Shown here in pieces: positions 3,389 through 36,801 of a stretch of 64,000 bases of DNA (its first letter is position 1; the number at the start of each line of letters is the position of its first letter). This stretch comes from Candidatus Krumholzibacteriia bacterium (GTDB lineage: Bacteria; Krumholzibacteriota; Krumholzibacteriia; LZORAL124-64-63): contig JBFXKG010000012.1 of the NCBI GenBank assembly GCA_050174015.1, forward strand, positions 44,622 to 108,621, given 5' to 3'. The notes beneath the pieces are model-generated. The model had not been told where the DNA came from. It ran no database searches and saw nothing but the letters and a program-made list of their open reading frames with translations. The position numbers and the translations under genes are program-made.

Positions 3389-3417
3389 GATGACACCCTC
3401 CCGGAAGGACCGTTCCC

Positions 3418-11469: not shown

Positions 11470-11868
11470 GGAAAACCTCCCGCGATAACGGTACCGCATC
11501 GGGACTCGAGGATCGATGAGTCGGCGAATGATGGGGGGCGAGAGGGCGAGGCTTACCGCATCGGTGTCGTCCAGCAACTGCCGGCTCACCAACGGAACCA
11601 GGTGAGGATATCAGAATGATCGGATGAATTCAAGAAAGATCATTGCCCCCAAATCCCACCGGATGGCTTATTTGCCGGGAAAATTTTGCCGGTCCGGACC
11701 AGGAGAGGGGGCAGATTTCAGGGACCAGTCGACCTGCGATCAATTATGAAAATCATTGTCGTTAAAAAAATAACTTAAGGTTGACGCGTACGACTCGAAA
11801 GCCCTAGGGTGCTTCTATGAGTAGGGCGGTCCGGCCCTGCTCGCGACCCCAATCGAGAGGTTTGAGTC

Positions 11869-12825: not shown

Positions 12826-12837
12826 GAGGAGGCTGAA

Positions 12838-14400: not shown

Positions 14401-14438
14401 TTGCAAGTCATGACGCCCGTCACAAGGAGGATCCGATA

Positions 14439-15428
14439 ATGACGGCAGCCCGCAAAAACCTGATGATCCTGATCTGCCTCGTGTCGTTGCTGGCCCTCGG
14501 CGCCTGTACCCGCGAGATCACCTACACCCAGGTGAACGAGAGCGCCTCGAGCTGCTTCGACTGCCACAACGATCAGGACACCTTCCTGATGGAAGCCCAG
14601 CTCGAGTGGACCTACTCCATGCACGCCATCGGCGCCAACGTCGCCTATGCCGGCGGCCGCAGCGGATGCTCCAATTGCCACTCCGGGGCGGGCTTCGAAG
14701 CTGCCCTGGCCGGCGAAACCGCAGTTCCTTACGCGACGTCCATCCGCTGCTTCAGCTGCCACGCTCCCCACACCAACGAGGACTTCCAGCTGCGGGTGAC
14801 GGAGGCCCAGACCCTGGCTGACGGAACGGTCCTGGACATCGGGGACGGCAATCTCTGCCTGTCCTGCCACCAGGCCCGCCGCGACGTGGCCACCGAGATC
14901 GTGGCCGACGACGAGGGCAACTACGTCATCCCCAGCAGCCACTGGGGCCCCCACCACGGTCCCCAGGGCGACCTCCTGGCCGGGACCAACGGCTACGAGT
15001 TCGAGGGCTACACCTACCGCAGTGCGGCTCCTCCGGCCCACCTGGCCAACGGCTGCATCAGCTGCCACTTCGCCGAGAACAGTGCCGCGGACCTGGGCGG
15101 CCACTCGTTCAACATGACCAACGCCGCCGGCGCCATGAACGTCAACGGCTGCAACCTCTGCCATACCGACCTGACGGACTTCAACTACGAAGGCCGCGTG
15201 GCGGAGATCGACGAGCTGGGCGAGGAACTGCACGCCCTGCTGGTCGCCGAGGGGACGGTCGACGAGGACGGGCATCCGATCCAGGACGCCGTCACGACCC
15301 TCGAGGGGAAGGCCGCGACGTGGAACTTCCTGTTCTGGGAAGAGGACCGGAGCCACGGCGTCCACAACCCCGACTATGCCGAAGACCTGCTCCGGGCCTC
15401 GATCGCGGTCATGAGCGGCGAGAAGTAG
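14439..15428 (+). CDS. Hexaheme c-type cytochrome lipoprotein (C-terminus resembles Geobacter OmcB-type surface cytochromes)
   Basis: Lipobox LALGA-C; 6 CXXCH (CFDCH, CSNCH, CFSCH, CLSCH, CISCH, CNLCH); C-terminal DRSHGVHNPDYAEDLL; AAGGAGG RBS. Confidence 0.85.
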   Translation: MTAARKNLMILICLVSLLALGACTREITYTQVNESASSCFDCHNDQDTFLMEAQLEWTYSMHAIGANVAYAGGRSGCSNCHSGAGFEAALAGETAVPYATSIRCFSCHAPHTNEDFQLRVTEAQTLADGTVLDIGDGNLCLSCHQARRDVATEIVADDEGNYVIPSSHWGPHHGPQGDLLAGTNGYEFEGYTYRSAAPPAHLANGCISCHFAENSAADLGGHSFNMTNAAGAMNVNGCNLCHTDLTDFNYEGRVAEIDELGEELHALLVAEGTVDEDGHPIQDAVTTLEGKAATWNFLFWEEDRSHGVHNPDYAEDLLRASIAVMSGEK

Positions 15429-16031: not shown

Positions 16032-17711
16032 ATGGACAAGCAGCTTCCCGGAATCGTCGTCACCGGGGCTTCGGGTTTCGTCGGCCGGCATTTCCTGGCC
16101 AGCGCGGCGGGCCGCTACCGCCTGTTCTGCCTGGCCCGGCGCTCCCGTTCGGAGGCGGGCGTTCCCGAGGATCCCAACCTGCGCTGGACCCAGGTGGACA
16201 TCGCCAAGTGGGACACCATGCGCCAGGTGGTCAACTGCGTGAAGGAGCATGGCGGGGCGGACTACGTCCTGCACCTGGCGGGATATTACGACTTCAAGTT
16301 CATGGAGCATCCGGAGTACGAGCGGACGAACGTCCTGGGGACCCGGAACGTCCTGAAGCTGGCCAAGCAGCTCGGGGTCAAGCGGTTCCTGTTCGCCAGC
16401 TCCCTGGCGGCCTGCCGTTTCCCCCCCGCCGGCGGCAGCGTGAACGAGGATTCCCCCGCCGATGCGGAATTCGCCTACGCCCGGAGCAAGCGCCAGGGGG
16501 AGGACATGGTGCGGGACAGCGCCGAGTGGTTCCCCGGCGCCATCATCCGGCTCGCGGCGGTCTTCAGCGACTGGTGCGAGTATCCGCCCCTCTACGTATT
16601 CCTCCAGACCTGGTTGGGACAGCGCTGGAACAGCCGGATCCTCGGCGGTAAGGGAAATTCCGCGGTCACCTACATCCACATCCAGGATCTGGTGAAGCTC
16701 TTCCACACGGTGATCGAGAAGAGCGATTCCCTGCCTCGGATCGGCGTCTACAACGCGAGTCCCAACTTCTGCACCAGCCACCGGGATCTCTTCCAGATCG
16801 CCACGCGCTACTACACGGGCGAGCAGGTGCGCCCGCTCTTCATGCCCCGGCGTCTGGCGGGTCCGGGCATCTATCTCCGCTGGTGGCTGGGCCGTCTGGT
16901 GGGGCGGATTCCCTTCGAGGCCCCGTGGATGACCAGGTACATCGACCGTCAGCTGGTGGTGGACGCCTCGCGGACCTACGAGGCGCTGGGCTGGAGCCCC
17001 GCGCGCCGGTCGGACATCTCCCGCAGGTTGCTCCTGATGATCGAGAACATGAAGGCCCACCGGGAGACCTGGAACCAGCGCAACGAGGCCGCCCTGCGCC
17101 GGGTGGCGCGGCGGCCGAACTTCGTCATCGCGGAGGCCCTCCAGGAGATGCGGGAGCATTGCCTCGGGCTCCTCGAGGATTTCGTGGCCGATCCAGGCCA
17201 TCGGGACCGGTTCCCCCACTACAGCCTGATGGAACCGGAAGCCATGCGGTGGTTCCTCACCTTGATCTATCAGGTCCTTTATTCCGCGGTCCAGACGCGG
17301 GACCGCCAGCTGATGCGCCACTACGCCCAGGTCATCGCGGCCAGGCGACGCCAGGAGGGTTTCGAGGCATCCGAGGTCATGGACCTGATGACTTCGGTGG
17401 GCGAGATCGTCAGCGAGGCCCTGCGCCGCAGGCGGGACCTGGAGGACCTGGGCCAGCAGATCCACGACCACGTGGTGCTCAGTTTCCAGCTGGCCATCGA
17501 CGCGGTGGAGGACGCCTACGAGACGATGGAGTCGCGTCCCCAGGAACTTGACGAGCGGCTGGGCGGGGTGGAACTCCCCACCAACGCGTCCGATCTCGAA
17601 CACATGGTCCATCAGCTCAGCGACATCTGTGACGAGGCCCTGCCTTCGCTGTACGGCGGGACGGGCCGTCCGTTGACGCGGGAACAGGTCCTGGGAAAGG
17701 GGCAGCCATGA
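16032..17711 (+). CDS. Extended SDR (NAD-dependent epimerase/dehydratase) fused to a C-terminal helical RsbRD_N/globin-like domain
   Basis: VVTGASGFVG, HLAGYY, FASSLAA, YARSK (YxxxK). C-terminal about 170 aa helical with RRRQEGFEASEV. Start set at MDKQL (16032). Confidence 0.8.
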   Translation: MDKQLPGIVVTGASGFVGRHFLASAAGRYRLFCLARRSRSEAGVPEDPNLRWTQVDIAKWDTMRQVVNCVKEHGGADYVLHLAGYYDFKFMEHPEYERTNVLGTRNVLKLAKQLGVKRFLFASSLAACRFPPAGGSVNEDSPADAEFAYARSKRQGEDMVRDSAEWFPGAIIRLAAVFSDWCEYPPLYVFLQTWLGQRWNSRILGGKGNSAVTYIHIQDLVKLFHTVIEKSDSLPRIGVYNASPNFCTSHRDLFQIATRYYTGEQVRPLFMPRRLAGPGIYLRWWLGRLVGRIPFEAPWMTRYIDRQLVVDASRTYEALGWSPARRSDISRRLLLMIENMKAHRETWNQRNEAALRRVARRPNFVIAEALQEMREHCLGLLEDFVADPGHRDRFPHYSLMEPEAMRWFLTLIYQVLYSAVQTRDRQLMRHYAQVIAARRRQEGFEASEVMDLMTSVGEIVSEALRRRRDLEDLGQQIHDHVVLSFQLAIDAVEDAYETMESRPQELDERLGGVELPTNASDLEHMVHQLSDICDEALPSLYGGTGRPLTREQVLGKGQP

Positions 17712-18181
17712 CCTCCGACAGGGATAGCAGGAAGAGCGGCTGGGAAGACCTGGCCTGGCGCAGTACGCGCTACAACGACCGGACCGTGCTCAAGTCCGGA
17801 TCGTTCCTGAACACCTTCTGCCCGCACTGCGGCGCCTCCCTCCTCCACGAGGGGATGGTGTTGCTGGAAACGGTCACGGCCGAGGGCGTGGAGGGCCGTC
17901 TGGAGCTCAGCCCCTACCTGAACGTGTTCGAGAGGCGCAGCGACATCCACATTCCCGAAGGCCAGGAGGTCAAGGACCTGCGCTGCAGCAGCTGCCACGC
18001 CTCCCTGAAGGCCGAAGGCCGGGTGTGCGGGGACGGACAGTCGGCGGTGGCCTGCGTCCTGGTGGGGATCTCGACCATCCGGGTGCCTTTCTTCTTCTGC
18101 ATGCGGGAGGGCTGCCGCTGGCAGCTCATCGACCCCGACGACGAGCACAAGATCATCCTGGACGACAGCAGGGAGTGGTAG
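17708..18181 (+). CDS. Cytoplasmic Cys-rich, putative metal-binding hypothetical protein
   Basis: CPHC, CSSC(H), C..C and CMREGC motifs; no signal peptide; ATGA overlap with the SDR gene. Confidence 0.75.
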   Translation: MTSDRDSRKSGWEDLAWRSTRYNDRTVLKSGSFLNTFCPHCGASLLHEGMVLLETVTAEGVEGRLELSPYLNVFERRSDIHIPEGQEVKDLRCSSCHASLKAEGRVCGDGQSAVACVLVGISTIRVPFFFCMREGCRWQLIDPDDEHKIILDDSREW

Positions 18182-18185
18182 ACCC

Positions 18186-18689
18186 ATGACCAATGCCCAA
18201 CCGGGACGCGGACGTGCGGTGATGCTCGCGGTGGTCACCCTGGCCCTGCTCGTCGTGGGCGCCGGGGGATACCTGCGGGAAGGCCCGGCTGATGATCCCC
18301 CCCGCTTCTATCTCCCGAATTCGGCCGGTGCGGTCCTGTTCACCCACGCGGATCACCTGGACATCGTCGGCGATTGCGAGACGTGCCACCACGAAAGCGC
18401 GGCCATGGATCCGCGCAATTGCCGGAGCTGCCACCCGGCGACGGCGGCCGAAGGCGAGCCGTTCCGCGGTTGCGGGTCCTGCCACGACGACCCGGACTAC
18501 ACGGCGGACTTCCTCGACCACGCCGGACTCCTGGAGATCGAGGAGCACGAGTGTTCCGGGTGCCACGATCCGGTGGGGGTGTCCGACGCCTATCATGCCT
18601 TGTGCAACGGTTGCCACCTGGAGAACGATCCCGACCGGTTCGCCGGTCCGGGCGGGCAGCCCCTCTGCGCGGCCTGCCATCTCAGGTAA
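18186..18689 (+). CDS. Class III (c3-type) hexaheme cytochrome c
   Basis: N-terminal anchor/signal, GAVLFTHADH class III motif, 6 CXXCH (CETCH, CRSCH, CGSCH, CSGCH, CNGCH, CAACH). Confidence 0.88.
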   Translation: MTNAQPGRGRAVMLAVVTLALLVVGAGGYLREGPADDPPRFYLPNSAGAVLFTHADHLDIVGDCETCHHESAAMDPRNCRSCHPATAAEGEPFRGCGSCHDDPDYTADFLDHAGLLEIEEHECSGCHDPVGVSDAYHALCNGCHLENDPDRFAGPGGQPLCAACHLR

Positions 18690-18706: not shown

Positions 18707-19987
18707 ATGAACCTGCTGGACATGCTCAGATCGCCGGCGCGCAGAGTTCCCGAACCGGGGGCGGCCCGTCCCGGCATCATCGACATCCCCGATCCCGACC
18801 GGGTGATCATCGCCCTGGAGTACCCGGGCAAGATCCTCTTCAGACCGGTGGTGAAGGAGGGGGACACGGTCGCCGCCAACCAGTTGATCGGCAGGTCCGG
18901 GCAGGGCAACTGCCTGCACGCTTCGATCGGGGGCACCGTGCAGGAGATCCGGCCGGTCTGGTCGGCCACCAGCGACCACGTGCCTGCGGTGGTCATCGCC
19001 CGCAGCGCGGTGCCGCCCCTTTCCCCGGAAAGGGTCCTGGCCCAGGCGGGCCTCGAATTGACGCGGGCCACGCGGGTGGAGTTGATGAAGGCCTGCGGGG
19101 TCGTCAGTCCCTGGACCACGCCGGGCCCGAACGACAGCGAGGAGGACGTCGCCCGGTATCCCGAGGTGCGGCACCTGGTGATCGTCGGGGTCAACCAGGA
19201 ACCGACCACCGTCAACTACGAGCTGCTGCTCCAGCAGGAGGTCGAGGCCGTCAAGATCGGCCTGCACCGGCTCCGGGAATTCTGCCCCCGGGTGCGCCCG
19301 CGGCTGCTGGTGGCGGCGGGCATGGCGGCCTGGGCGCGCAAGGAGCTGGGGGACTCCCTCGACATCGTGCCCCTCGGGGCGGACTACCGCAGGCGGATCA
19401 GGCGGCTGGTGATTCCGGAGCTCACCGGCGAAAAGGTGGCGGCGACCGAGGCCTTCCGGGCCCACGGGATCGCCTCGATCACCGTCGAACAGCTGCTGGC
19501 CATGGTGGATTCCCAGGCGGGCCTGCCGTTCGTCCGCAAGACGGTGTCGGTGGCGGGGGCCGGGCTGGACGGCACGGTCACCGTACGGGTCCCGGTGGGG
19601 ACGCCCGTCCGCTGGATCCTGGAACAGCTGGACCTCCCCGAACCCCGCGGCGGCCGCCTGATCATGGGCGGCCCCATGCGCGGCATGGCCCATTACACCC
19701 TCGACGCCCCGGTGAGCAAGTTCGAGAACGGGGTCTATCTGCTGGACCGTGAGCACCTGCCCTCCGAGGTGAACCTCACCTGCATCAACTGCGGGGTCTG
19801 CACCCGGACCTGCCCGGTGGGTCTGCAGGTCCACCTCCTGGGCCGGTGCGTGGAATTCGGCAGCCTGTCCGACACTCCCCGCTACCACCCCGAGGCCTGC
19901 CTGGAATGCGGCCTTTGCGCGTTCGTCTGTCCGGCGCACCGGCCCCTGGTGCAGATGATCAAGATGGCCAAGAAATACGGCGGTTGA
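18707..19987 (+). CDS. rnfC: RnfC-like subunit with a degenerate NADH/FMN-binding site
   Basis: N-terminal barrel (VKEGDTV...LHASIGGTV), SLBB region, GGPMRG, two ferredoxin motifs CINCGVCTRTCP and CLECGLCAFVCP. The GMGGAGFP motif is replaced by GVVSPWTT. Confidence 0.85.
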   Translation: MNLLDMLRSPARRVPEPGAARPGIIDIPDPDRVIIALEYPGKILFRPVVKEGDTVAANQLIGRSGQGNCLHASIGGTVQEIRPVWSATSDHVPAVVIARSAVPPLSPERVLAQAGLELTRATRVELMKACGVVSPWTTPGPNDSEEDVARYPEVRHLVIVGVNQEPTTVNYELLLQQEVEAVKIGLHRLREFCPRVRPRLLVAAGMAAWARKELGDSLDIVPLGADYRRRIRRLVIPELTGEKVAATEAFRAHGIASITVEQLLAMVDSQAGLPFVRKTVSVAGAGLDGTVTVRVPVGTPVRWILEQLDLPEPRGGRLIMGGPMRGMAHYTLDAPVSKFENGVYLLDREHLPSEVNLTCINCGVCTRTCPVGLQVHLLGRCVEFGSLSDTPRYHPEACLECGLCAFVCPAHRPLVQMIKMAKKYGG

Positions 19988-19989
19988 CC

Positions 19990-20988
19990 ATGGCGACTTC
20001 GCTCGAAAAATCCCCGTTCCTGACCTCCTCCGACTTCAACGTCGCCTCCAGTCCGCACTGGCGCGACGGCAGTTCGCTCGCCCAGATCCAGGTGCTGTGG
20101 CTCGTCGCCCTGATGCCCGCGGTCTGGGGGGCCTGGAGCCATTTCGGTCTGACGGGTGTGCGGGTCCTCTGCCTGGCCACCGCCACGGCGGTGATGTGGG
20201 ACGCCCTGGGCAACCGGATCTTCCCGGGCAAGGACCACACGACCAACCTCAGCAGCGTGACCCTGGGCCTGCTGCTGGGCCTGATCCTGCCGGTGGACGC
20301 CCCCTGGTGGCTGGTCACGGTCGGCACCTTGATGATGATCATGGTCGGCAAGAAGATGTTCGGGGGCTGGGGCGGATATCCGGTCCACCCGGTGGCGCTG
20401 AGCTACGCCATGCTCGCGGTCTCCTGGCCGGGACGACTGGACCGGACGGCGGCCCTGGCCGGGCTGGACTGGCCGGTGACCATGATCGAGCCCCTGCGCC
20501 TGGTCAAGACCCTGGGCCCGGCGGCCGAAGGGGCCTTCGCGCCCCTGGACCTGTTGCGCGGCGACCAGGTGGCGGGGGTGGGGGACGGGATGGTGATCCA
20601 CCTCGCCGCCGGCGGCCTTCTGCTGGTCCTGCTGCGCCAGGTTCCCTGGCAGATCCCGGTGGGGACGCTGCTGGGAACCGCGGGTACCGCGGCGGCCCTC
20701 GCCTGGCTGACCCCGGACAGGGTGGCGTCGGCCCAGTTCCATCTGCTGACCGGGGGCACGGTCCTCATGGCGTTCTTCCTGCTGGCCGAGCACACGACCT
20801 CCCCGGTGAACGCCCGACCGATGCTGCTCTACGGGCTGCTGGCGGGGTTGCTGATGGTCCTCATCCGCACCTTCAGCAGCCACGTCGACGGGGGCATGTT
20901 CGCGCTCCTGCTGGTGAACCTGTGTTCCCCCCTGCTGGACCGCTGGGTTCCCCGTCTCAAGGGTTTGGAGGTGGGAAGCGATGCGTGA
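19990..20988 (+). CDS. rnfD: RnfD-like membrane subunit lacking the FMN-carrying Thr
   Basis: SSPHWR, GKKMFGGWG...HPVA, AEHTTSP, FALLLVNL; VTMIEPL where RnfD has (S/T)GATPL. Confidence 0.88.
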   Translation: MATSLEKSPFLTSSDFNVASSPHWRDGSSLAQIQVLWLVALMPAVWGAWSHFGLTGVRVLCLATATAVMWDALGNRIFPGKDHTTNLSSVTLGLLLGLILPVDAPWWLVTVGTLMMIMVGKKMFGGWGGYPVHPVALSYAMLAVSWPGRLDRTAALAGLDWPVTMIEPLRLVKTLGPAAEGAFAPLDLLRGDQVAGVGDGMVIHLAAGGLLLVLLRQVPWQIPVGTLLGTAGTAAALAWLTPDRVASAQFHLLTGGTVLMAFFLLAEHTTSPVNARPMLLYGLLAGLLMVLIRTFSSHVDGGMFALLLVNLCSPLLDRWVPRLKGLEVGSDA

Positions 20989-21568
20989 CATCGGCCGTCT
21001 CGTCCTGGTTCTGGTGGCGATCTGCTCGCTCAGCGCAGCCTCCCTGTCCTACGTGAGGACGTCGCTGGCGACCCGGATCGAACAGCAGGGCGACTACTAC
21101 GTCAGGGGACCGGCCCTGGCCCGGCTGTTCCAGCAGCCGGCTTCCCAGCTGCTGGCCAACAAGGTCAAGATCACCAGGGATGGGATCGAGTATCCGGTCT
21201 TTTTCCGGAAGGACGGGGAGCAGGTCACCGGTCTCGCGGTGGAAGCCTCCGGCCAGGGAGGCTACGGCGGTCCCATCGTGATGATGATCGGGATCGATCT
21301 GGCCACCGACACGGTCCTGGGCGTGGAGATCGTCTTCCACAGCGAGACCCCCGGCCTGGGCGCCCAGGTCGAGAAGGCCGGGTTCCGGCAGCAATGGGTC
21401 GGGCTTCCCCTGGGGTCGTCCGTGGCCCTCGCCGGGTCCGGAGGGTCGGTGGACGCCATCACCGGGGCGACCTTCTCCTCCAGCGCCATGGTGGACGGAA
21501 CGAACCAGGTCCTTGACCTGATGAACACGAACAGGGCAGCCATTCTGGCCGAGATCGCCGGTCGCTGA
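20981..21568 (+). CDS. rnfG: RnfG periplasmic FMN-binding subunit
   Basis: N-terminal anchor, GYGGPI, HSETPGLG, covalent-FMN motif DAITGATFSS intact. Confidence 0.92.
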   Translation: MRDIGRLVLVLVAICSLSAASLSYVRTSLATRIEQQGDYYVRGPALARLFQQPASQLLANKVKITRDGIEYPVFFRKDGEQVTGLAVEASGQGGYGGPIVMMIGIDLATDTVLGVEIVFHSETPGLGAQVEKAGFRQQWVGLPLGSSVALAGSGGSVDAITGATFSSSAMVDGTNQVLDLMNTNRAAILAEIAGR

Positions 21569-21593: not shown

Positions 21594-22205
21594 ATGGATT
21601 TCAAGCAGGCGTTGACCCACGGTTTCTGGCGCGACCTGCCGCCTTTCCGCCTGGTGCTGGGGCTGTGCCCCTCGCTCGCGGTGACCGCCGCGGCGGAGAA
21701 CGGTTTGGGCATGGGGCTGGCGGTCACCTTCGTGCTGATCTTCAGCAACATGTTCATCTCGCTGCTGCGCCGGGTGATCCCCGACAAGGTGAGGATCGCC
21801 AGCTACATCGTCGTCATCGCCACCCTGGTGGTTCTGGTGGAGCTGAGCATGAAGGCCTTCTTCTTCCCGCTCTCGCAGCAGCTCGGCATCTACATCCCCC
21901 TGATCGTGGTGAACTGCATCATCCTGGGACGGGCCGAGGCCTTCGCCAGCCGCAACCCGGTGCTGATCTCCATGGCCGACGGCCTGAGCGTGGGCCTGGG
22001 CTTCACCGTTTCGTTGACCCTGGTGGGATCGCTGCGGGAGATCCTGGGCTCGGGCACCTGGTTCGGGATGGGACTTTTCGGTCCGGGCTTCGAGCCGTTC
22101 GGTTTCATGGTCAAGGCCCCGGGCGCCTTCCTCTGCCTGGGGGTGCTGCTGGGGCTCATGAACGCGTGGAGCCGCCGCCGCGGGGAAATCTTCGTCCAGA
22201 CCTGA
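21594..22205 (+). CDS. rnfE: RnfE membrane subunit
   Basis: LGLCPSLAVT, IYIPLIVVNCIILGRAE, PGAFL. Confidence 0.95.
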   Translation: MDFKQALTHGFWRDLPPFRLVLGLCPSLAVTAAAENGLGMGLAVTFVLIFSNMFISLLRRVIPDKVRIASYIVVIATLVVLVELSMKAFFFPLSQQLGIYIPLIVVNCIILGRAEAFASRNPVLISMADGLSVGLGFTVSLTLVGSLREILGSGTWFGMGLFGPGFEPFGFMVKAPGAFLCLGVLLGLMNAWSRRRGEIFVQT

Positions 22206-22217
22206 GGAGCGTGACTC

Positions 22218-22793
22218 GTGGATCTGATCATCCTGGCCGTCGGGGCCATCTTCGTGCAGAACATCCTGCTCGCGCAGTACCTGGGCAACTGCCCGTTCTG
22301 CGGCGTCTCCAAGAAGACGGGGACCGCCGTCGGCATGGGGGTCGCGGTGATCTTCGTGGCCACCCTGGCCTCGATCTTCACGTGGCTGGCCTATTACCTG
22401 CTCCTGGTGCCGCGCCACCTGGAGTACCTGCAGACCATGGTCTTCATCCTCATCATCGCCGCCCTGGTCCAGCTGGTGGAGATCTTCCTGAAGAAGCAGA
22501 GCAGGACCCTGTACGACGCCCTGGGCATCTACCTGCCCTTGATCACGACCAACTGCGCCGTGATGGGCATCGCCCTGCTGAACATCAAGCACGGGTTCGG
22601 TTTCGTGGAGATGGTGGTGTATTCCGCGGCGAGCGCGGCGGGATTCGCCCTGGCGATCATCCTGTTCGCAGGAGTGCGGGAGCGGATGTTCCTGGCGCCC
22701 GTCCCCAAGGCGATGCGCGGCACCGCCATCGCCCTGGTCACGGCCGGGATCATGTCGCTCGCGTTCATGGGGTTCGCGGGCATGGGCAAGTAG
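22218..22793 (+). CDS. rnfA: RnfA membrane subunit
   Basis: YLGNCPF, LGIYLPLITTNCAVMG, GVRER; GTG start after GAGGAG. Confidence 0.95.
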   Translation: MDLIILAVGAIFVQNILLAQYLGNCPFCGVSKKTGTAVGMGVAVIFVATLASIFTWLAYYLLLVPRHLEYLQTMVFILIIAALVQLVEIFLKKQSRTLYDALGIYLPLITTNCAVMGIALLNIKHGFGFVEMVVYSAASAAGFALAIILFAGVRERMFLAPVPKAMRGTAIALVTAGIMSLAFMGFAGMGK

Positions 22794-22809: not shown

Positions 22810-24909
22810 ATGCTGGTTCCGGCAATGGTACTCGGGGGCATCGCGGCGGTGGCGGCCGTCGCCCTCGGCATCGCGGCGCGGATCTTCCACGTGGAGGAGG
22901 ATCCCCGCTTCAAAGGCGTGGCCGACCTGCTGCCCGGCGCCAACTGCGGCGGCTGCGGTTTCGCCGGCTGCTCGGCCTGCGCCGAGGCCATCGTGCGCGG
23001 CCAGGCCGAGGTGAACGCCTGCGTGGTCGGCCAGACCGATACCGCCCGGCAGGTGGCGGCCTTCCTGGGCATGGAGATGGTGGACAACGAGCCCCAGATC
23101 GCCTGCCCCGACTGTCGGGGGGGGATCCGGGCGACGCGCAAGTACGACTACGCGGGGTTCGACGACTGCCGGGCCGCCATGCAGCTCTTCCACGGTCCCA
23201 CCGTCTGCGACCACGGCTGCCTCGGTCTGGGGACCTGCATCCGGGCCTGCCAGTTCGGCGCCATCCGGATGGGGGACGAGGGCCTGCCGGTCTTCGATCC
23301 CTTGAGGTGCGTCGGTTGCGGCTCCTGCGTGCGGGCCTGTCCCAAGGGGATCATCTCCATCATCAGCGAGACCACCAAGATCCTGCACTGGAACCGCTAC
23401 AGCGAGTGCCTGGCGCCCTGCCGCCAGAAGTGCCCGGCCCAGGTCAACGTGCCCAAGTACATCGAGCACATCCGCAAGGGCGAGTACGCCCAGGCCCTGA
23501 TGACGGTGCGGGAAAGCAATCCGCTGCCCCTGAGCACCGGGCGGGTCTGCCCCGAACCCTGCTCCCTGGCCTGCCGGCGCCAGATCGAGGACGAACCGGT
23601 GGCCATCAACTACCTCAAGCGGTTCCTGGCCGACTGGGAGATGGAGCAGGAGACCAGGCTGCACATCCCCGTCGCCCCGGACACGGGCAAGCGGATCGCG
23701 GTGATCGGCGGGGGACCGGCCGGGCTGAGCGCCGCCTACTATCTGCGCCGCCTCGGCCACGCGGTCGCCATCTTCGAGAAGATGCCTGCCCTGGGCGGCA
23801 TGCTGCGCTACGGCATTCCCGAGTACCGGTTGCCCAAGCGGATCCTGGACTGGGAGATCCAGGGCATCCTGGGCCTGGGCATCCAGGCGACCTGCAACGT
23901 GGAGCTCGGCAAGCACTTCAGCATCGACTTCCTGCGGGCCGAGGGCTTCGACGCCATCTTCATGGCCGTGGGCGCCTGGCTGGACAAGGGCCTGGGCCTG
24001 GACGAGGACGGTCTGGAGGGCGTGGCGCCCGGCATCAAGTTCCTCGAGACCTACCACCACCAGAAGGACATCACCGTCACCGGGAGGGTGGCGGTCATCG
24101 GCGGCGGCAACACCGCCATCGATTGCGCCCGGACGTCCCTGCGGTCGGGCGCCGAGAAGGTGACCATCGTCTACCGTCGCAGCCGCGACGAGATGCCGGC
24201 CAATCCCGCCGAGATCATCGCCGCCGAGGAGGAAGGCATCGAGTTCCGCTTCCTCAGCGCACCGAGCTGCATCCTGAGCGAGGATGGGCGGGTCACGGGG
24301 CTGGAGGTCCTGCGCATGGAACTCGGCGAGCCCGACCCCAGCGGCAGGCGCCGTCCCGTGCCGGTGGCGGGCAGCGAGGAGACCGTGCCCTGCGACCTGA
24401 TCATCGAGGCCGTGGGCCAGGAGCCCGACCTCGAATTCCTGAAGTCCGAGGGCATGCCCAAGCTGCCGCTCACCCGCTGGAACACCATCGACGCCAAGGA
24501 GGAGACCCTGCAGACGGACGTCCCGTTCATCTTCACGGGGGGGGACTGCTTCACCGGTCCCGGCCTGATGGTGGAGGCCATCGGAGCGGGCCGGTACGCC
24601 GCCCGGTCCATCCACTACTACGTGACCGACGGGGTGATTCCCCCGATCGAGCACCGTCAGACCGACCTGATTCCCGCCTCGCTGTTCGAGTCGATCAGCG
24701 GGGTGGAGGAGAAGCCCAAGGTGCACGAACCCATCGTGTCGCTGGAGGACCGGCTGGGGACCTTCAAGGAGGTCGAGGGCACCATCGACGAGGAGGACGC
24801 GGTCTACGAGGCGAGCCGGTGCCTGCACTGCGGGACCTTCTGCTACGACCACGACCTCGAGGTGGCCAGGCAGGAGGCGGAACAGGACAGGATGCAGGAG
24901 AGCACCTGA
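22810..24909 (+). CDS. rnfB: RnfB fused to a GltD/NfnB-like FAD/NADP(H) oxidoreductase module
   Basis: LPGANCGGCGFAGCSAC, CLGLGTCIRAC, CVGCGSCVRACP; then PCRQKCP...GRVCPEPCSLAC, IGGGPAG (FAD), IGGGNTAID...YRRS (NADP-type), EASRCLHCG. Confidence 0.9.
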   Translation: MLVPAMVLGGIAAVAAVALGIAARIFHVEEDPRFKGVADLLPGANCGGCGFAGCSACAEAIVRGQAEVNACVVGQTDTARQVAAFLGMEMVDNEPQIACPDCRGGIRATRKYDYAGFDDCRAAMQLFHGPTVCDHGCLGLGTCIRACQFGAIRMGDEGLPVFDPLRCVGCGSCVRACPKGIISIISETTKILHWNRYSECLAPCRQKCPAQVNVPKYIEHIRKGEYAQALMTVRESNPLPLSTGRVCPEPCSLACRRQIEDEPVAINYLKRFLADWEMEQETRLHIPVAPDTGKRIAVIGGGPAGLSAAYYLRRLGHAVAIFEKMPALGGMLRYGIPEYRLPKRILDWEIQGILGLGIQATCNVELGKHFSIDFLRAEGFDAIFMAVGAWLDKGLGLDEDGLEGVAPGIKFLETYHHQKDITVTGRVAVIGGGNTAIDCARTSLRSGAEKVTIVYRRSRDEMPANPAEIIAAEEEGIEFRFLSAPSCILSEDGRVTGLEVLRMELGEPDPSGRRRPVPVAGSEETVPCDLIIEAVGQEPDLEFLKSEGMPKLPLTRWNTIDAKEETLQTDVPFIFTGGDCFTGPGLMVEAIGAGRYAARSIHYYVTDGVIPPIEHRQTDLIPASLFESISGVEEKPKVHEPIVSLEDRLGTFKEVEGTIDEEDAVYEASRCLHCGTFCYDHDLEVARQEAEQDRMQEST

Positions 24910-25986
24910 TCAGGAACCGGCGCCCGTCCTCAGGCGGTAGCGGTCCGCGTAGCCGGGCAGGACGGCGATCCTGCCGGCGAGGCCCGGGGTGGGGATGACG
25001 TCGATCTCGCCGGGGCCGGGACCGGGCACGACGAAGACGGCTTCGACTCCGGGGTGGTGGCGGGCGAGCAGCAGCGCCCCCTGCTCGGGCCCCAGGATGA
25101 ACAGGGTCGTCGAGAGCCCGTCGGCGAGGATCCCCGTGGGGGCGATGACGGTCGCGCTGAGGGTCCCGGCGGCCGGGCTGCCGGTGGCGGGATTCATGAT
25201 GTGACCGTACCGCACGCCGTCGATGGTCACGAACTTCTCGTAGGATCCGCTGGTCGCCACGGCCGCGTTCGAGACGGTGACGGTGGCGAAGATCCGGGTC
25301 TTGTCCAGGGGATCCTTGATCCCCACCCGCCAGTCGGCCCGGCCAGGCGCCCCGCCCAGGCAGAAGAGGTTTCCCCCCAGGTCGATCAGGCCGCCCTTGA
25401 CCCCTGCGGCGCGCAGGCGGGCGACGGCCAGATCCACGGCCAGGCCCTTGGCGATCCCGCCCAGATCGAACCGGGTCCCCCCCGATTCCTTGACCACGGC
25501 CCGCCCCTCCTGGACGAAGCGCCAGCGTCCCAGGAGGGCCCGGGCCGAGTCCACGGCCGCCGCACCCGGCAGGACCCCCCGCTTCCGGTGGAATCCCCAC
25601 AGGTCCAGCAGGGCGCCGGCGGTGGGGTCGAAGGCCCCGCCGCTCTGTTCTCCCAGCTGCCGGGACAGTTCCAGGCAACGGCCCAGCCAGGGCGATACGG
25701 CGACGGCGGAGTCCGCGGGGGCGCGGTTCAGGCGGCTGATCGCGGAATCCGGGCGCCGGATGCTCAGCTCCGACTCCAGGGAATCGTACACCGCCTGCAC
25801 CAGGGCCTCGGCCCGGGAGGCATCCAGCCCCGGGGGCAGCTCGAGGGAACAGGCGGCCACCGTCCCCATGCTGGCGAATTCGAAACTGCCCGAGGCGGGG
25901 CCGGGCGAGGATGAGCGGCAAGCCGGAAGGGCGGCCAGGAGGGGAACCAGGAACATGGCGGGAATCCGCAGGGTTCGGCTGATCAT
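24910..25986 (-). CDS. apbE: ApbE/Ftp FAD:protein FMN transferase (lipoprotein)
   Basis: SMGT, FDPTAG, DLGGIAKGLAVD, LGGN, ATSGSYE, GHIMNP, ADGLST; lipobox ALPA-C; start set at MISRT; stop abuts the rnfB stop (TGATCA). Confidence 0.92.
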   Translation of the reverse strand: MISRTLRIPAMFLVPLLAALPACRSSSPGPASGSFEFASMGTVAACSLELPPGLDASRAEALVQAVYDSLESELSIRRPDSAISRLNRAPADSAVAVSPWLGRCLELSRQLGEQSGGAFDPTAGALLDLWGFHRKRGVLPGAAAVDSARALLGRWRFVQEGRAVVKESGGTRFDLGGIAKGLAVDLAVARLRAAGVKGGLIDLGGNLFCLGGAPGRADWRVGIKDPLDKTRIFATVTVSNAAVATSGSYEKFVTIDGVRYGHIMNPATGSPAAGTLSATVIAPTGILADGLSTTLFILGPEQGALLLARHHPGVEAVFVVPGPGPGEIDVIPTPGLAGRIAVLPGYADRYRLRTGAGS

Positions 25987-26160
25987 CGGATCCTTCCCGG
26001 TCGGTTCTCGGGACCTGGCAAGGCGAGCTTCCCCCAAGATATCCCTCCGGATCACGAGATCAAATCGTGAGGATTCGTTGCGGGCGCCCAGGAAGCATAC
26101 TAAAATGATATGGTTTAAGAAATATGATTCTCATTTTCGCCGAACGGGAGCGCGCCGCTG

Positions 26161-32673: not shown

Positions 32674-32773
32674 TATATACAAAAACTCTACAAAAATAAG
32701 AAAATAAATCCAAAAAATCGGCCATTTACGGCAATATAACAAATTTGTTTAGTTTGATATTGTTTTGTATATA
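32674..32773. promoter_or_regulatory. AT-rich divergent promoter region with a 12-bp palindrome and an 11-bp inverted repeat pair
   Basis: AACAAATTTGTT at 32738-32749; TATATACAAAA at 32674-32684 with TTTTGTATATA at 32763-32773. Confidence 0.5.
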
Positions 32774-32827
32774 AAATTTGGAAGGGAGGGGGAAGAAACC
32801 GCGGATCCATCAGCAGGTGGATTGCGC

Positions 32828-32857
32828 TTGTTCCGTCAAGTATCTTTGTGGTATCAT
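32828..32857 (+). promoter_or_regulatory. Possible sigma70 promoter for the GH57 operon
   Basis: TTGTTC-N18-TATCAT with an extended TG (TGgTATCAT). Confidence 0.4.
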
Positions 32858-32959
32858 TTCTTTTGCAATGGATTCGTCAGATTTGTTCACTTGCCCAACA
32901 CCTCCCCGCGAGGTGGTGGGGCTTTTCGGTGTGTGCAGCATCGTGAGGTTGGCCGAAAC

Positions 32960-35900
32960 ATGATGGACTCGCCCCTTCGCATCCTGGTTCCTGCCTGCCT
33001 GGCGATCCTCCTGACCGGGACCGCCGTGGCCGGAACCGATCTCGAACTGCGGTCGGTGCTCGCCGTCGACAGGGTGGGGGTCGAGGACTCGCTCTCCCCC
33101 GCCGCGGACATCCTGTCGGTGACCATGTATCGCGACGCCGCACTCGACCGGGACGTCCTGCGGATCGCCTTCCTGTCCCTGGGGCGGCAGGCTCCTCCGG
33201 ATCTGATGGCCGCCCTGGCCTCGGCGTCCGCGGCGCCCATCGATGTGATCGTGACCGACAGGTCGACGCCGTCGGAGGCCTTGCTGGCGGAGGCCACGCT
33301 CCATGACCGGGGATCGGTCTACCTCCCGGCCGAAATGCCCGTGAACAAGGCCCGCACGGGAACGGTGTGGACCGTGCCCGACGATCCCGACGCCCTCTAC
33401 CTGACGTTGCCCCGGGGACTGGCCGCCGGGGCCGATGCCGTGAATCCCCTGCGGATCGCGGTCCGGTCCTCCCACGCAACCCCGTCCGGGGCCATCGTCG
33501 CCGACGAGGTGACCGCGGCGTATCCCGCCGACAAGGCCTACCAGGCCAACTGCTCCCTGGTCCTTCACGGCAATCAGGGCCTCGGTTACAGCGACGTCTT
33601 CCACGGCCGCAGCGACGATCTCGAGGGCAGCGGTTTCGACGAGGCCCTGCAGGTGCATCAGGGGACGGGCGTCCCGGGCAACTTCCACCTCAGCGGGACC
33701 CTGCAGTCGTCCGCCGAGTGGGCGGCCAACAACGGGGACCCCACCGACTTCAACGCCTGGCTGGCCGCCGGGGTGACCGCCGGCTGGGCCGGAATGGTCA
33801 CCTCCGCCTACGCCCAGCACATCATGCCCTTCGTCACCGACGACATGAACGACTGGGCGGTCGCCATCCAGGCCCAGATGACCGACACGCGGTACGGCTA
33901 CTTCCCGACCGTGGCCTGGGTGCCCGAGCGCGTCTGGCTGAACACCGGCGGCTATCCCAGCAGCGGGGTGAACGACTGGATCGGCGACAACTGGCTCCCC
34001 CACGGAGTGGGCGCCGTGATCCTCGACGACGACGTCCACCTCACCGGCCACGACAATCACCAGATCCACACCCTCTCGGGCAGCAGCCTGCGTCTGGTGC
34101 CCCGCGACCGCGCCTTCACCGGCAACATCCTGGGCGGCAACGGCCAGGCGTCGCTGGACATCCTGACCGGTCTGGCCGGCAGCGGCGTGGGCGAATTCCG
34201 CATCGCGGTCCTGGCCGAGGACTGGGAGGCCATCGGCGAGATGGGGGGCTGGGCGACCATCACGCCCAACGCCAAGGAGACCTACGACTGGTTCGTGGGC
34301 AAGTGCAGCACCGAGAGCGCCTGGCTCAGCACCTGGAAGCTCGCCGACGCCGTCGCCAACCCCGACTTCAACGGCGGCACGATCACCGTGACGCCGGGCA
34401 CCTACCAGGAGATCGGCGGCTTCGACGGCTACGGGGGCGGGGACAACGGCTGGTACACCCACTGGGCAGGCTTCGTGCCGTACGCCAACGGCGGCGACGG
34501 CAACGGGTCCTGCGCCGGAACCGGAGGCAACTGCAAGGACTACGGCACTCTCTGGAGCGACGCCTACAACGCCCTGATGGCCGCCCCCGACAACAACATC
34601 AGCCAGGCCGGCTGGTACGTGATGATGACCAACCTGCACGAGACCGCCTGGCACGACTACCTCGGCGGGCCCATCTCGGGCTGGCAGCACAAGTACAGCG
34701 CGCACATCAAGAATGCCATGATCTACGCGGAGGCGGCCCACTGGGCCAACGGCGACTACGCGGTGACGACCGCCGCCTTCACCAGCGACGTCGACAACGA
34801 CGGGTACCTCGAAGTGGTCATGCACAACGACCGTCTGTTCGGCGTCTTCGAGGGCAACGGCGGCCGCTTGACCCACCTGTTCGTCAAGGGATCCGGCAAG
34901 GCCGGCATCTTCAACGACACCGCCATCGGGGTGGACAACGCCTACTGGTCCGACACCGAGGGCGACTTCAACGACGCCAACCACGTGGGGGCCTTCAGCG
35001 ACGTCTCCCCGAACTACCAGCATGACGGGTACGGGTGGGCCATCGGCCCGGTGGACCCCGCGGGGCCCACGGTCACCCTGACGTTGACCCGCAACGAGGT
35101 CGCCAAGACCGTCGCCCTGACCGAAGGCGACAGCTTCTTCGACGTGGTCTACGACGTGGGACCGGCCACCCACTGGATCCAGGCCGGGTTCTCGCCCAGC
35201 CTGGTGGATCTGGTCTGGAACGCGCAGATGGACCGGATCTGGGCCCCCGACGCGGCCTACATGGGGCAGCGCAATCCCAGCACCGGGGTGACCGCAGCCT
35301 GGGTCCTGGGTTCCGGAGGCGCCGGCCACCAGCGGGACTTCTCGGGAACCCTGATGAAGGGCGACGAGATCAAGGGCGAGGGCGTGTTCCAGCTGCGGCT
35401 GTTCGCCGGGGTCACGAGCGCTCCGGACGTCGCCGGCGACGTCGCCGAGCTGCGCGCCATGGTGCCCGAGGTGACCGACACCATCGGGCCGGCCGTCACC
35501 GCGGCGGTCTATTACCCTGCCACGGACCGGCTGCAGCTGACCTTCGACCAGATCGTGGCCGGCTGCGATCCGTCCGGCGTGGCCGTGGTCGAGGGGGCCG
35601 GCGCCACCACGGTGGTGACCTTGCCCGTGTCCACTCCGGTCAGCGAGACCGGACCTGCGATCACGCGGACCTTCGAGCTGGATGCCGGCACCGCCGCCGC
35701 CGTCGAGGCCCTGGCCGGCGACCTCTACCTGACGCTGGACGCCGATGCGGCCCTGGACGGGAACGGTGTGGGAAACCTGGCCGTCGTCGCAGGCGAGATC
35801 CCGGTGGATGTCGCAGCCACGGCCATCGCCGTCGACGGCAACGTCGAGGCGGGGGAATGGGAGAACGCCCTGGCCCTGGCCGACAGCAACGACTCGGCCT

Positions 35901-36790: not shown

Positions 36791-36801
36791 GGAGGATTCG
36801 C

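What the first reader, a model, noticed from the sequence alone, without database searches (positions are those of the whole stretch)
22810..24909. RnfB fused to a GltD/NfnB-like NADP(H) flavoprotein module
Seen: complete RnfB FeS motifs followed by two GltD-type 4Fe-4S motifs, an FAD Rossmann fold and a second Rossmann fold with GGGNTA...YRRS (basic residues typical of NADP specificity). Established: NfnB carries the bifurcating FAD of Nfn and hands low-potential electrons to ferredoxin, although many GltD-like proteins do not bifurcate. Inference: the pyridine-nucleotide site has moved from RnfC to RnfB and switched to NADP(H).
Basis: partly seen in the sequence, partly recalled or inferred. 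Interest (0 to 1): 0.66.

Follow-up and report, generated by a model that had tools for sequence, protein, structure and literature searches.

The report
NADPH-flavoprotein-fused RnfB of a cytochrome-linked Rnf
The gene is real: it fuses the RnfB subunit of a membrane ion pump to an NADPH-binding flavoprotein, in a pump that has lost its usual NADH site and has a cytochrome c instead, but this "Rnf2-type" variant was already described in sulfate reducers and has never been tested biochemically.

Summary
ORF 22810-24909 (+, 699 aa) is an RnfB core (aa 1-191) joined in frame to a GltD/NfnB-type module: two [4Fe-4S] clusters, FAD, and an NADP(H)-type Rossmann fold. It is the last gene of a cyt c-rnfCDGEAB operon. 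It is not a chimera: more than 120 full-length homologue clusters exist, and single contigs in three independent metagenomes span the junction.

- RnfC has lost the NADH/FMN motifs.
- RnfD has Glu where canonical RnfD carries the FMN-binding Thr.
- The fused module keeps every NADP(H) contact known from NfnB.

It is unlikely to bifurcate. Its nearest relatives are the non-bifurcating NADPH-entry domains of NfnABC/Stn. It has Lys where NfnSL has Glu, Asn where bifurcating NfnB has Arg333, and no nfnA gene in the operon.

The most likely function is a reversible, ion-translocating NADPH:cytochrome c oxidoreductase. It would have a Methanosarcina-like output and an Nqr-like input.

The architecture is already published as the "Tol2-type/Rnf2" complex (2016, 2025), without biochemistry. 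This is a new member from a non-sulfate-reducer lineage. Added details: the RnfD flavin-site loss, 24 conserved ligands (six clusters), and a conserved 157-aa accessory gene.

The parts
17708..18181 (+). 157-aa cytoplasmic Cys-rich protein (CPxC...CxxC, invariant C-terminal EW); conserved companion of the cluster, function unknown
   Evidence: Weak Pfam DZR hit only. Homologues sit beside cyt c/rnf in L081, L084, L085, L086, L083, L001 and L002.
18186..18689 (+). Hexahaem c-type cytochrome (167 aa) with an N-terminal signal/anchor; proposed periplasmic electron partner
   Evidence: Six CxxCH motifs. Pfam Cytochrome_C7. A multihaem cytochrome lies just upstream of rnfC in fused loci only, plus Methanosarcina and L041.
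18707..19987 (+). RnfC (426 aa) with degenerate NADH/FMN motifs; both C-terminal [4Fe-4S] motifs are kept
   Evidence: Alignment to 9eri_C/7zc6_C. No 51K/SLBB Pfam hit; TIGR01945 171 bits, below its cutoff of 246. Motif table across 51 loci.
19990..20988 (+). RnfD (332 aa) lacking the covalent-FMN threonine (VTTATPL becomes VTMIEPL) and the GxIGExS motif
   Evidence: TIGR01946 177 bits, below its cutoff of 207.
20981..21568 (+). RnfG with an intact flavinylation motif, TGAT (T164)
   Evidence: Best NCBIfam match is RnfG_DVU2794.
21594..22205 (+). RnfE (Cys25, Cys108 kept)
22218..22793 (+). RnfA (Cys25, Cys113 kept)
22810..23382 (+). RnfB core of the fusion (aa 1-191): TM anchor, FeS domain (C46/49/54/71), a family-specific ~21-aa insert with C102/C120, and a 2x[4Fe-4S] domain
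23392..23652 (+). Fer4_20 domain (aa 195-281): the FAD-proximal cluster is predicted on C208/C247/C251/K270, and a distal cluster follows
23677..24627 (+). FAD and NADP(H) Rossmann domains (aa 290-606): GGGPAGL, R340, K393, GGGNTAID, Y455-R456-R457-S458, N465, R513, GGD
24751..24849 (+). C-terminal tail (aa 648-680), FKEVE...EASRCLHCGTFCY: a permuted copy of the N-terminal 'EAxRCLxC' cluster-ligand motif of GltD/DPD/NfnB, as in NfnA/StnC
   Evidence: C671/C674/C678 are invariant.
24910..26055 (-). ApbE flavin transferase (convergent); needed to flavinylate RnfG
   Evidence: Pfam ApbE, E 2e-76. Same position in L081, L084, L003, L005 and L006.

Best explanation
This is the electron-input subunit of an 'Rnf2/Tol2-type' Rnf complex. 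The membrane-anchored RnfB core is extended by a non-bifurcating, NfnL-like flavoprotein that oxidises or reduces NADP(H) at FAD.

Proposed path: electrons pass one at a time from FAD through a chain of about six [4Fe-4S] clusters in RnfB. They then go to the RnfA/E [2Fe-2S] centre and on to the covalently bound FMN of periplasmic RnfG. From there they reach the operon-encoded hexahaem cytochrome c and, beyond it, periplasmic or extracellular carriers. The RnfA/E core couples this transfer to Na+/H+ translocation.

The canonical exit is disabled: the RnfD flavin site and the RnfC FMN/NADH site are both degenerate. The complex would therefore be a reversible ion-translocating NADPH:cytochrome c oxidoreductase. 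Its output resembles Methanosarcina Rnf-MmcA and its input resembles Nqr.

Shown here: the domain architecture, motif losses and retentions, synteny, and that the gene is not a chimera.
Inferred: NADPH preference, the cluster count, cytochrome c as partner, ion coupling, and the physiological direction.
For: Architecture and operon.

NADP(H) site: all PfNfnI-B NADP(H)/FAD contact positions are kept (R340, K393, R457, R513). The VYRR[ST]xxEMPA loop is shared with Csac NfnA, Tsib NfnA, StnC, Tm NfnB and Pf NfnI-L.

Non-bifurcating:
- Best sequence and fold matches are 9bov_A, 9n5u_A and 8oh5_C. In those enzymes NADPH reduces FAD, which feeds A7-A6-... singly, and the bifurcation site is B1-FMN-C1.
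- The A7 ligands Cys108/147/151/Lys170 equal window C208/C247/C251/K270.
- The Arg333 position is Asn465.
- There is no nfnA in the operon.

RnfC and RnfD:
- The RnfC NADH/FMN motifs are degenerate in the window and in all 11 fused loci with an adjacent rnfC. They are canonical in 36 of 40 unfused loci.
- The RnfD flavinylated Thr is replaced (Glu in the window). The motif is degenerate in all fused loci and canonical in unfused ones.
- RnfG TGAT, the RnfA/E Cys pairs and ApbE are kept.

Cytochrome: a multihaem cytochrome lies directly upstream of rnfC in the window and in 11 fused loci from several phyla, and in none of the canonical loci.

Precedent: M. acetivorans Rnf does not use NAD(P). 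Its RnfG is proposed to hand electrons to cytochrome c, and its RnfC/RnfD are likewise degenerate in my alignments.

Literature: Rnf2 is abundant and constitutive in Desulfobacteraceae, with cytochrome c3 proposed as the exit.

Context: a porin-cytochrome-like gene trio lies just upstream.
Against: - There are no biochemical data for any member, so NADPH versus NADH preference is inferred from motifs only.
- RnfC keeps both [4Fe-4S] motifs in every locus. That argues it still carries electrons to or from an unidentified partner, which this model does not explain.
- Four fused loci with upstream sequence lack an adjacent cytochrome gene (L005, L006, L011 and L036, the last cut at the contig end), so cytochrome c may not be obligatory.
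- The RnfB core could still dock ferredoxin.
- The AF2 model is poor (pLDDT below 50) in exactly the cluster-binding loops, and no coordinates were available, so cluster spacing and the bridging cluster are untested.
- Rnf-linked relatives in Desulfobacterales MAGs have degenerate NADPH motifs. The published Desulfobacteraceae Rnf2 RnfB probably belongs to that class (not checked against a named Rnf2 sequence), so it may work differently.
Confidence: 0.55

Rival explanations
1. Ferredoxin remains the main donor at the RnfB clusters. The fused module is a built-in, non-energy-conserving ferredoxin:NADP+ oxidoreductase (Cac_0764-type Fnor chemistry). RnfB would then be a hub where Fd and NADPH pools equilibrate and either can feed the pump.
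For: Stand-alone Fer4_20+Pyr_redox_2 proteins lacking Arg333 and nfnA are experimentally Fd:NADP+ oxidoreductases. The RnfB core clusters are all kept. [quoted passage not shown]
Against: In clostridial RnfB the distal polyferredoxin domains follow the core (A. woodii RnfB is 333 aa and aligns only to aa 2-192). Here that position is taken by the flavoprotein. A free short circuit between Fd and NADPH would waste the Fd/NADPH potential difference.
Confidence: 0.2
2. RnfC, stripped of FMN but keeping two [4Fe-4S] clusters, is still the exit. It reduces an unidentified cytoplasmic acceptor of higher potential than NADPH, or accepts electrons from one. The cytochrome would be accessory.
For: Both CxxCxxCxxxCP motifs of RnfC are conserved in every fused locus. 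Some fused loci lack a cytochrome gene. A conserved 157-aa Cys-rich cytoplasmic protein co-occurs and could be such a partner.
Against: The RnfD flavin site, which connects RnfG to RnfC in solved Rnf structures, is degenerate. That would interrupt the path to RnfC. No candidate acceptor enzyme is conserved in the operon.
Confidence: 0.12
3. The fused module is a true NfnB-like bifurcating site. NADPH electrons would split between a high-potential branch (through Rnf to cytochrome) and a low-potential branch (ferredoxin).
For: Homology to NfnB/NfnL. R340 (= Arg201) is present.
Against: Only one cluster chain leaves the FAD, and there is no NfnA/NfnS-like subunit in the operon. The Arg333 position is Asn465, and Glu126 is replaced by Lys270. 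The closest relatives (NfnA of NfnABC, StnC) do not bifurcate at this flavin.
Confidence: 0.05
4. The flavoprotein part is a catalytically dead or purely structural relic.
For: In a second class of fused RnfB (class II: rnf-linked Desulfobacterales MAGs and FdhA-adjacent copies) the NADPH loop, YGIPEYRLPK and GGD motifs are degenerate.
Against: In the window's class every FAD, NADP(H) and cluster ligand position is conserved across phyla at 55-84% identity.
Confidence: 0.03

Closest known systems
'Desulfobacula toluolica Tol2-type' / Rnf2 complex of Desulfobacteraceae (Woehlbrand et al. 2016, cited in PMC5109826; PMC11887813 and supplement)
   Same: RnfB of about 700 aa: residues 1-200 resemble small RnfB and the rest is a pyridine-nucleotide oxidoreductase domain. 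RnfC lacks the 51K/FMN domain. A small cytochrome c is encoded in the cluster. The gene order is rnfCDGEAB.
   Different: The window protein is only 37-41% identical to the rnf-linked Desulfobacterales proteins. It keeps the full GGGNTAxD/YRRSxxEMPAN/GGD set, which those have lost. The host is not a sulfate reducer by context; the cluster is syntenic with MAGs labelled Krumholzibacteria and Gemmatimonadales. The literature says NAD(H), whereas the motifs here say NADP(H). The papers treat the other subunits as unchanged, and RnfD is not.
NfnL-like domain of NfnA in NfnABC (C. saccharolyticus 9BOV, T. sibiricus 9N5U) and of StnC (S. ovata 8OH5)
   Same: These are the best sequence matches (E 1e-132 to 1e-115) and the best fold matches. 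The Lys-ligated FAD-proximal cluster, the NADPH loop and the permuted 'EAxRCLxCG' tail after the flavin domains are shared. In those enzymes the module works as a single-electron NADPH entry port into an FeS wire.
   Different: There it is fused to an Fdh-like domain and feeds a soluble Bfu bifurcating core. Here it is fused behind a membrane-anchored RnfB and feeds an ion pump.
NfnB/NfnL of bifurcating NfnSL (T. maritima 4YLF_B, P. furiosus 5JCA_L)
   Same: Fer4_20 plus FAD plus NADP(H) fold; Arg201 and the NADP(H) contacts are conserved.
   Different: The cluster ligand is Lys instead of Glu126, and Asn replaces Arg333. There is no NfnA/S partner. The cluster-ligand segment is permuted to the C-terminus.
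Methanosarcina acetivorans Rnf with cytochrome c MmcA
   Same: A cytochrome c gene lies upstream of rnfC. The complex does not use NAD(P) at RnfC, and RnfG-FMN is the proposed donor to cytochrome c. RnfC/RnfD nucleotide and flavin motifs are degenerate in my alignments.
   Different: The input there is ferredoxin through an ordinary polyferredoxin RnfB. The cytochromes differ in size and haem number (5 CxxCH in about 510 aa against 6 in 167 aa).
Na+-NQR (NqrF/NqrA)
   Same: The logic is the same. The pyridine nucleotide is oxidised by a flavoprotein at the RnfB position, and the RnfC homologue (NqrA) has lost its nucleotide site.
   Different: NqrF is an unrelated FNR-type FAD/[2Fe-2S] protein using NADH. 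NqrB keeps its covalent FMN. The acceptor is quinone, and no cytochrome is involved. This is an analogy, not homology.

Membership tests
RnfB (Rnf complex subunit B) | N-terminal membrane anchor followed by the PF04060 CxxCxxxxC...C cluster domain and a 2x[4Fe-4S] ferredoxin domain | tested here: met
   Helix 2-25 in the AF2 model. PF04060 aa 41-72 and Fer4 aa 134-183. TIGR01944 77.4 bits against a cutoff of 68.7. Aligns to 9eri_B/7zc6_B over aa 2-192.
RnfB (Rnf complex subunit B) | Encoded with rnfC, D, G, E and A | tested here: met
   Last gene of rnfCDGEAB. Same order in 20 related loci.
Rnf2 / Tol2-type Rnf | RnfB of about 700 aa with a C-terminal pyridine-nucleotide oxidoreductase domain | tested here: met
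   699 aa; Pyr_redox_2 aa 295-594. Definition taken.
Rnf2 / Tol2-type Rnf | RnfC without the NADH-ubiquinone oxidoreductase 51K/FMN and SLBB domains | tested here: met
   No such Pfam hits. Motifs are degenerate against solved RnfC.
Rnf2 / Tol2-type Rnf | Small multihaem cytochrome c encoded in the cluster | tested here: met
   18186-18689, six CxxCH motifs.
Bifurcating NfnB/NfnL (NfnSL) | Glu ligand (PfNfnI-B Glu126) on the FAD-proximal [4Fe-4S] | tested here: not met
   The aligned residue is Lys270 (LKRF against LERF).
Bifurcating NfnB/NfnL (NfnSL) | Arg333 next to the isoalloxazine ring, fully conserved in bifurcating NfnB | tested here: not met
   EMPAN: Asn465, invariant in 68 homologues. 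Arg201 is kept as R340.
Bifurcating NfnB/NfnL (NfnSL) | Adjacent nfnA (NfnS) gene providing the second, high-potential branch | tested here: not met
   Nothing like it in the operon or in the related loci. The rest of the genome is unseen.
NfnL-like NADPH entry module (NfnA of NfnABC / StnC) | A7-type cluster on 3 Cys plus Lys, NADPH loop, and a C-terminal 'RCLxCG' segment after the flavin domains | tested here: met
   C208/C247/C251/K270 equal Csac C108/C147/C151/K170. The tail aligns to 9bov_A residues 525-571.
NfnL-like NADPH entry module (NfnA of NfnABC / StnC) | NADPH oxidised at FAD (activity) | not testable with these tools
   Only motif conservation is available.
GltD (glutamate synthase small subunit) | Reaches the family cutoffs and pairs with a GltB large subunit | tested here: not met
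   TIGR01317 238 bits against 447.7; TIGR01318 318 bits against 483. No gltB nearby.
Canonical ferredoxin:NAD+ Rnf | RnfC GxGGAxFP / ECEPY NADH-FMN site and RnfD [ST]GAT-type covalent FMN threonine | tested here: not met

The most novel reading that the evidence does not exclude
The complex is an independently evolved, Nqr-like ion-pumping NADPH dehydrogenase. An NfnL-type flavoprotein is wired to RnfB through an extra [4Fe-4S] cluster shared between the two halves. The RnfD/RnfC flavin branch is discarded. Electrons leave through RnfG to a hexahaem cytochrome and on to the neighbouring porin-cytochrome-like conduit. This would directly couple cytoplasmic NADPH to periplasmic or extracellular electron transfer, or, in reverse, make NADPH from extracellular electrons at the expense of the ion gradient.
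Probability: 0.35. Interest if true: 0.75.

Novelty: new member of a known kind. Interest (0 to 1): 0.45.

Why it matters
Rnf2-type complexes are reported as core, abundant and constitutive in Desulfobacteraceae, yet their substrates are unknown. This window belongs to a widespread clade found in MAGs labelled Krumholzibacteria, Gemmatimonadales, Thermoanaerobaculales, Zixibacteria, Marinimicrobia and Calditrichaceae, and in Desulfobulbales and Desulfovibrionales relatives. In this clade the flavoprotein keeps every NADP(H)/FAD/cluster residue.

If the proposed activity holds, many anaerobes have an unrecognised ion-translocating link between the NADPH pool and periplasmic cytochromes. That would change the energy and redox budgets inferred from genomes that simply annotate 'Rnf = Fd:NAD+'. 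The motif criteria given here (RnfC, RnfD, K270, N465, YRRS) allow such complexes to be told apart automatically.

Tried and rejected
- **Assembly chimera:** rejected.
- **GltD proper and NfnSL-type NfnB membership:** rejected on cutoffs, ligand, Arg333 and partner genes.
- **C580 (GGDCFTGP) as a cluster ligand:** rejected, because it is not conserved in the Desulfobacterota members of the same class.
- **Measuring FAD/cluster distances and the Arg near N5 in the AF2 model:** not possible, because no coordinates are returned and the cluster loops have pLDDT below 50. The Arg question was answered by alignment instead.
- **Literature:** searches for RnfB+GltD, RnfB+NfnB and 'fused/long RnfB' found no description beyond the Rabus-group papers. 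A search for the PDB code 9BOV returned only noise. The 2025 Rnf/Nqr review does not mention the variant. The Proteomics 2016 paper itself is not held.
- **The look-up of encoding contigs for P0112:** found nothing.
- **Not run:** a second homologue search with RnfC, and the representative-library search. The motif correlation was already clear from 51 loci.
Full report
**1. What is there**

The finding's coordinates hold one uninterrupted ORF, 22810-24909 on the + strand (699 aa). Its ATG is preceded by GAGGAG.

- Residues 1-191 are an RnfB core. They comprise a hydrophobic N-terminal anchor, the PF04060 cluster domain (C46/C49/C54/C71) and a 2x[4Fe-4S] ferredoxin domain. TIGR01944 rnfB scores above its cutoff, and phmmer aligns aa 2-192 to RnfB of the solved A. 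woodii and C. tetanomorphum complexes.
- Residues 195-682 are a GltD/NfnB-type module. It has Fer4_20 (two [4Fe-4S]), an FAD Rossmann fold (GGGPAGL), a second Rossmann fold (GGGNTAID ... VYRRSRDEMPAN) and the GGD motif.

**2. Not an artefact**

More than 120 protein clusters (55-84% identity) share the full-length architecture. The source is a landfill metagenome, whose unitigs tile the junction with no differences at even depth. Single contigs from a sludge and a groundwater metagenome also cross it.

**3. Surroundings**

The gene closes an operon:
- a 157-aa Cys-rich protein (17708-18181)
- a hexahaem cytochrome c (18186-18689)
- rnfC (18707-19987)
- rnfD (19990-20988)
- rnfG, rnfE, rnfA
- rnfB::flavoprotein
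- a convergent apbE

The same cluster occurs in MAGs labelled Krumholzibacteria, Gemmatimonadales, Thermoanaerobaculales, Zixibacteria and Marinimicrobia, in an unnamed 3-Mb contig, and in Desulfobulbales/Desulfuromonadales relatives. The loci labelled Krumholzibacteria and Gemmatimonadales are syntenic with the window even further upstream.

**4.

Against solved RnfC, the glycine-rich NADH loop (GLGGATFP) reads SPWTTPGP, and the FMN motif (GAECEPY) reads GVNQEPT. Pfam finds no 51K or SLBB domain, yet both C-terminal CxxCxxCxxxCP motifs are intact.

Across 51 loci fetched with the fusion as bait, the pattern is consistent:
- Every locus with a fused RnfB and an adjacent rnfC has the degenerate RnfC (11 loci plus the window).
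- 36 of 40 loci with an ordinary RnfB have the canonical motifs.
- The four exceptions are two Methanosarcina loci (with MmcA) and two Thermodesulfobacteriota loci.

**5. RnfD is also changed**

I did not find this stated in the papers I read. RnfG keeps its TGAT flavinylation motif, but RnfD has no [ST]GAT-type site. 'VTTATPL' of A. woodii and C. tetanomorphum RnfD aligns with 'VTMIEPL', so the FMN-bearing Thr is Glu, and the GxIGExS motif is gone.

The motif is degenerate in all fused loci; the Thr survives in three of them. It is canonical in ordinary loci. The Cys pairs of RnfA and RnfE are kept. The whole RnfD-RnfC 'NADH half' has thus lost its flavin and nucleotide sites, while the RnfB-RnfA/E-RnfG half is intact.

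**6. What kind of flavoprotein is fused**

By sequence and by Foldseek on an AF2 model (pLDDT 75.5, pTM 0.70), the best relatives are NfnA of NfnABC (C. saccharolyticus 9BOV, T. sibiricus 9N5U) and StnC (8OH5). These rank ahead of NfnB/NfnL, Xfn, DPD and GltD.

In NfnABC, NADPH reduces the FAD of this domain. Electrons then go singly through clusters A7-A6-..., and bifurcation occurs at the distant B1-FMN-C1 site. A7 is ligated by Cys108/147/151 and Lys170. By alignment these are C208/C247/C251/K270 here, all conserved.

Published discriminators for bifurcating NfnB map as follows:

| PfNfnI-B residue | Role | Window residue |
|---|---|---|
| Glu126 | proximal-cluster ligand | K270 |
| Arg201 | near FAD, kept in both classes | R340 (kept) |
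| Arg333 | hallmark of bifurcating NfnB | N465 (invariant Asn) |
| Arg253 / Arg325 / Arg382 | NADP(H) contacts | K393 / R457 / R513 (kept) |

At the Arg333 position, T. maritima NfnB has Arg, while NfnA and StnC have Glu or Asn. No nfnA gene is present in the operon.

Conclusion: this is an intact NADP(H)/FAD site of the non-bifurcating, NfnL-like 'entry port' type. NADPH preference is inferred, not measured.

**7. Cofactor count**

In 33 fused proteins of both classes, 23 Cys plus K270 are conserved, with one exception (Gly at the C200 position in L003). That gives 24 ligands, or six [4Fe-4S] clusters.
- Ten of the ligands lie in aa 102-177.
- Ten lie in aa 200-270 plus 671-678.

So one cluster should be shared between the RnfB half and the flavoprotein half. 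A roughly 21-aa insert carrying C120 is absent from ordinary RnfB.

The C-terminal tail (FKEVE...EASRCLHCG) is the permuted equivalent of the N-terminal 'EAxRCLxC' ligand segment of DPD/GltD, exactly as in NfnA and StnC. These points are inferences.

**8. Mechanism proposed**

NADPH -> FAD -> six [4Fe-4S] -> RnfA/E [2Fe-2S] -> RnfG-FMN -> hexahaem cytochrome c, coupled to ion translocation and reversible.

By thermodynamic reasoning from general knowledge, electron flow from the RnfB side is the ion-exporting direction in Rnf. With NADP(H) on that side, the partner must therefore be of higher potential (cytochrome or quinone), not ferredoxin at RnfC.

The precedent is M. acetivorans Rnf. It does not use NAD(P), and its RnfG is proposed to deliver electrons to cytochrome c. 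Nqr is the analogy for a flavoprotein at the RnfB position and a cofactor-poor RnfC homologue.

Just upstream lie a decahaem cytochrome, a 520-aa secreted protein without a family, and a hexahaem lipoprotein cytochrome (11866-15428). This trio resembles a porin-cytochrome conduit.

One thing stays unexplained: why RnfC keeps two clusters.

**9. Prior knowledge**

The architecture is published.
- Doerries et al. 2016 (PMC5109826, citing Woehlbrand et al. 2016) describe a 'D. toluolica Tol2-type' Rnf. It has a ~700-aa RnfB containing NAD+-binding sites, an RnfC lacking the NADH and SLBB domains, and a small cytochrome in the cluster.
- The 2025 Sci. Adv. paper and its supplement call it Rnf2. 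They find it in all Desulfobacteraceae, plus Da. baarsii and Dv. salexigens, abundant and constitutive. They propose Fd (maybe NADH) -> cytochrome c3 -> Qrc.

I found no biochemistry.

Relative to that literature, the window is a new member from another lineage and of a distinct sequence class. Rnf-linked proteins from Desulfobacterales MAGs are 37-41% identical and have lost the GGGNTAxD / YRRS..EMPAN / GGD motifs, whereas the window's class keeps them.

**10. Verdict**

- Observation: confirmed.
- Interpretation: partly supported. Site relocation is supported. NADP(H) is likely. Bifurcation is unlikely.
- Novelty: new member of a known but uncharacterised kind.
- Interest: moderate.

Noticed in passing
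window 17708-18181 (+); L081 2770-3243, L084 2770-3243, L085 2448-2921, L086 2191-2664, L083 10139-10597, L001 4748-5236, L002 4660-5235: A 157-aa Cys-rich protein with no signal peptide is conserved beside the cytochrome/rnf cluster across several phyla. It has conserved CPxC and CxxC pairs, further conserved Cys, and an invariant C-terminal EW. It has no family assignment and may be an extra subunit or assembly factor.
   Followed up: partly
window 16032-17711 (+); L081 998-2644, L084 966-2612, L082 6970-8634: A ~550-aa protein with an N-terminal NAD-dependent epimerase/dehydratase (SDR) domain and a long helical C-terminal extension lies next to this Rnf type in three other loci. It is upstream in two and directly after rnfB in the Zixibacteria locus.
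   Followed up: partly
window 11866-15428 (+): Three genes in a row resemble a porin-cytochrome electron conduit: a decahaem cytochrome c (10 CxxCH), a 520-aa signal-peptide protein with no Pfam hit, and a hexahaem lipoprotein cytochrome (lipobox LGAC). The beta-barrel nature of the middle protein was not tested.
   Followed up: partly
L008, L010, L011, L013, L027, L032 (rnf-linked) and L014-L026, L033-L035 (not rnf-linked): A second class of fused RnfB-flavoproteins keeps all cluster ligands and the FAD GxGxxG motif. It has degenerate YGIPEYRLPK, GGGNTAxD, YRRS..EMPAN and GGD motifs, so its NAD(P)H site may be altered or lost.
   Followed up: partly
L017 7030-15062 (also L014-L026 generally): Many Desulfobacteraceae carry a stand-alone copy of the fused gene with no rnf genes nearby. 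In L017 it is divergent from a split (probably selenocysteine-containing) FdhA-type formate dehydrogenase gene, with fdhD a short way downstream. Some JGI records name homologues 'formate dehydrogenase (NADP+) beta subunit'.
   Followed up: partly
P0099, P0112, P0117 (Desulforhopalus/Desulfopila); L001, L002: The Desulfobulbales subgroup of the window's class has GAGNVAMD, FRFSR (losing the Arg325 equivalent) and GGMPD in place of SGRRR (losing the Arg382 equivalent). This may mean a changed nucleotide preference.
   Followed up: no
L039, L041 (Thermodesulfobacteriota MAGs): These loci have an ordinary short RnfB but degenerate RnfC and RnfD motifs. L041 also has a tetrahaem cytochrome upstream. 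This looks like a bacterial counterpart of the Methanosarcina arrangement, without the flavoprotein.
   Followed up: no
window 3394-5637 (+): A single 748-aa ORF joins a class-V aminotransferase (NifS/selenocysteine-lyase-like) domain to AIR-synthase-related (SelD/ThiL-type) domains.
   Followed up: no
window 62994-64000 (+): Another multihaem cytochrome ORF (8 CxxCH) runs off the end of the window.
   Followed up: no
window 32765-39204 (+): Two very large secreted proteins (1341 and 918 aa) end in FlgD_ig-type domains. Similar tails occur in the syntenic locus labelled Krumholzibacteria, hinting at an FCB-superphylum host.
   Followed up: no
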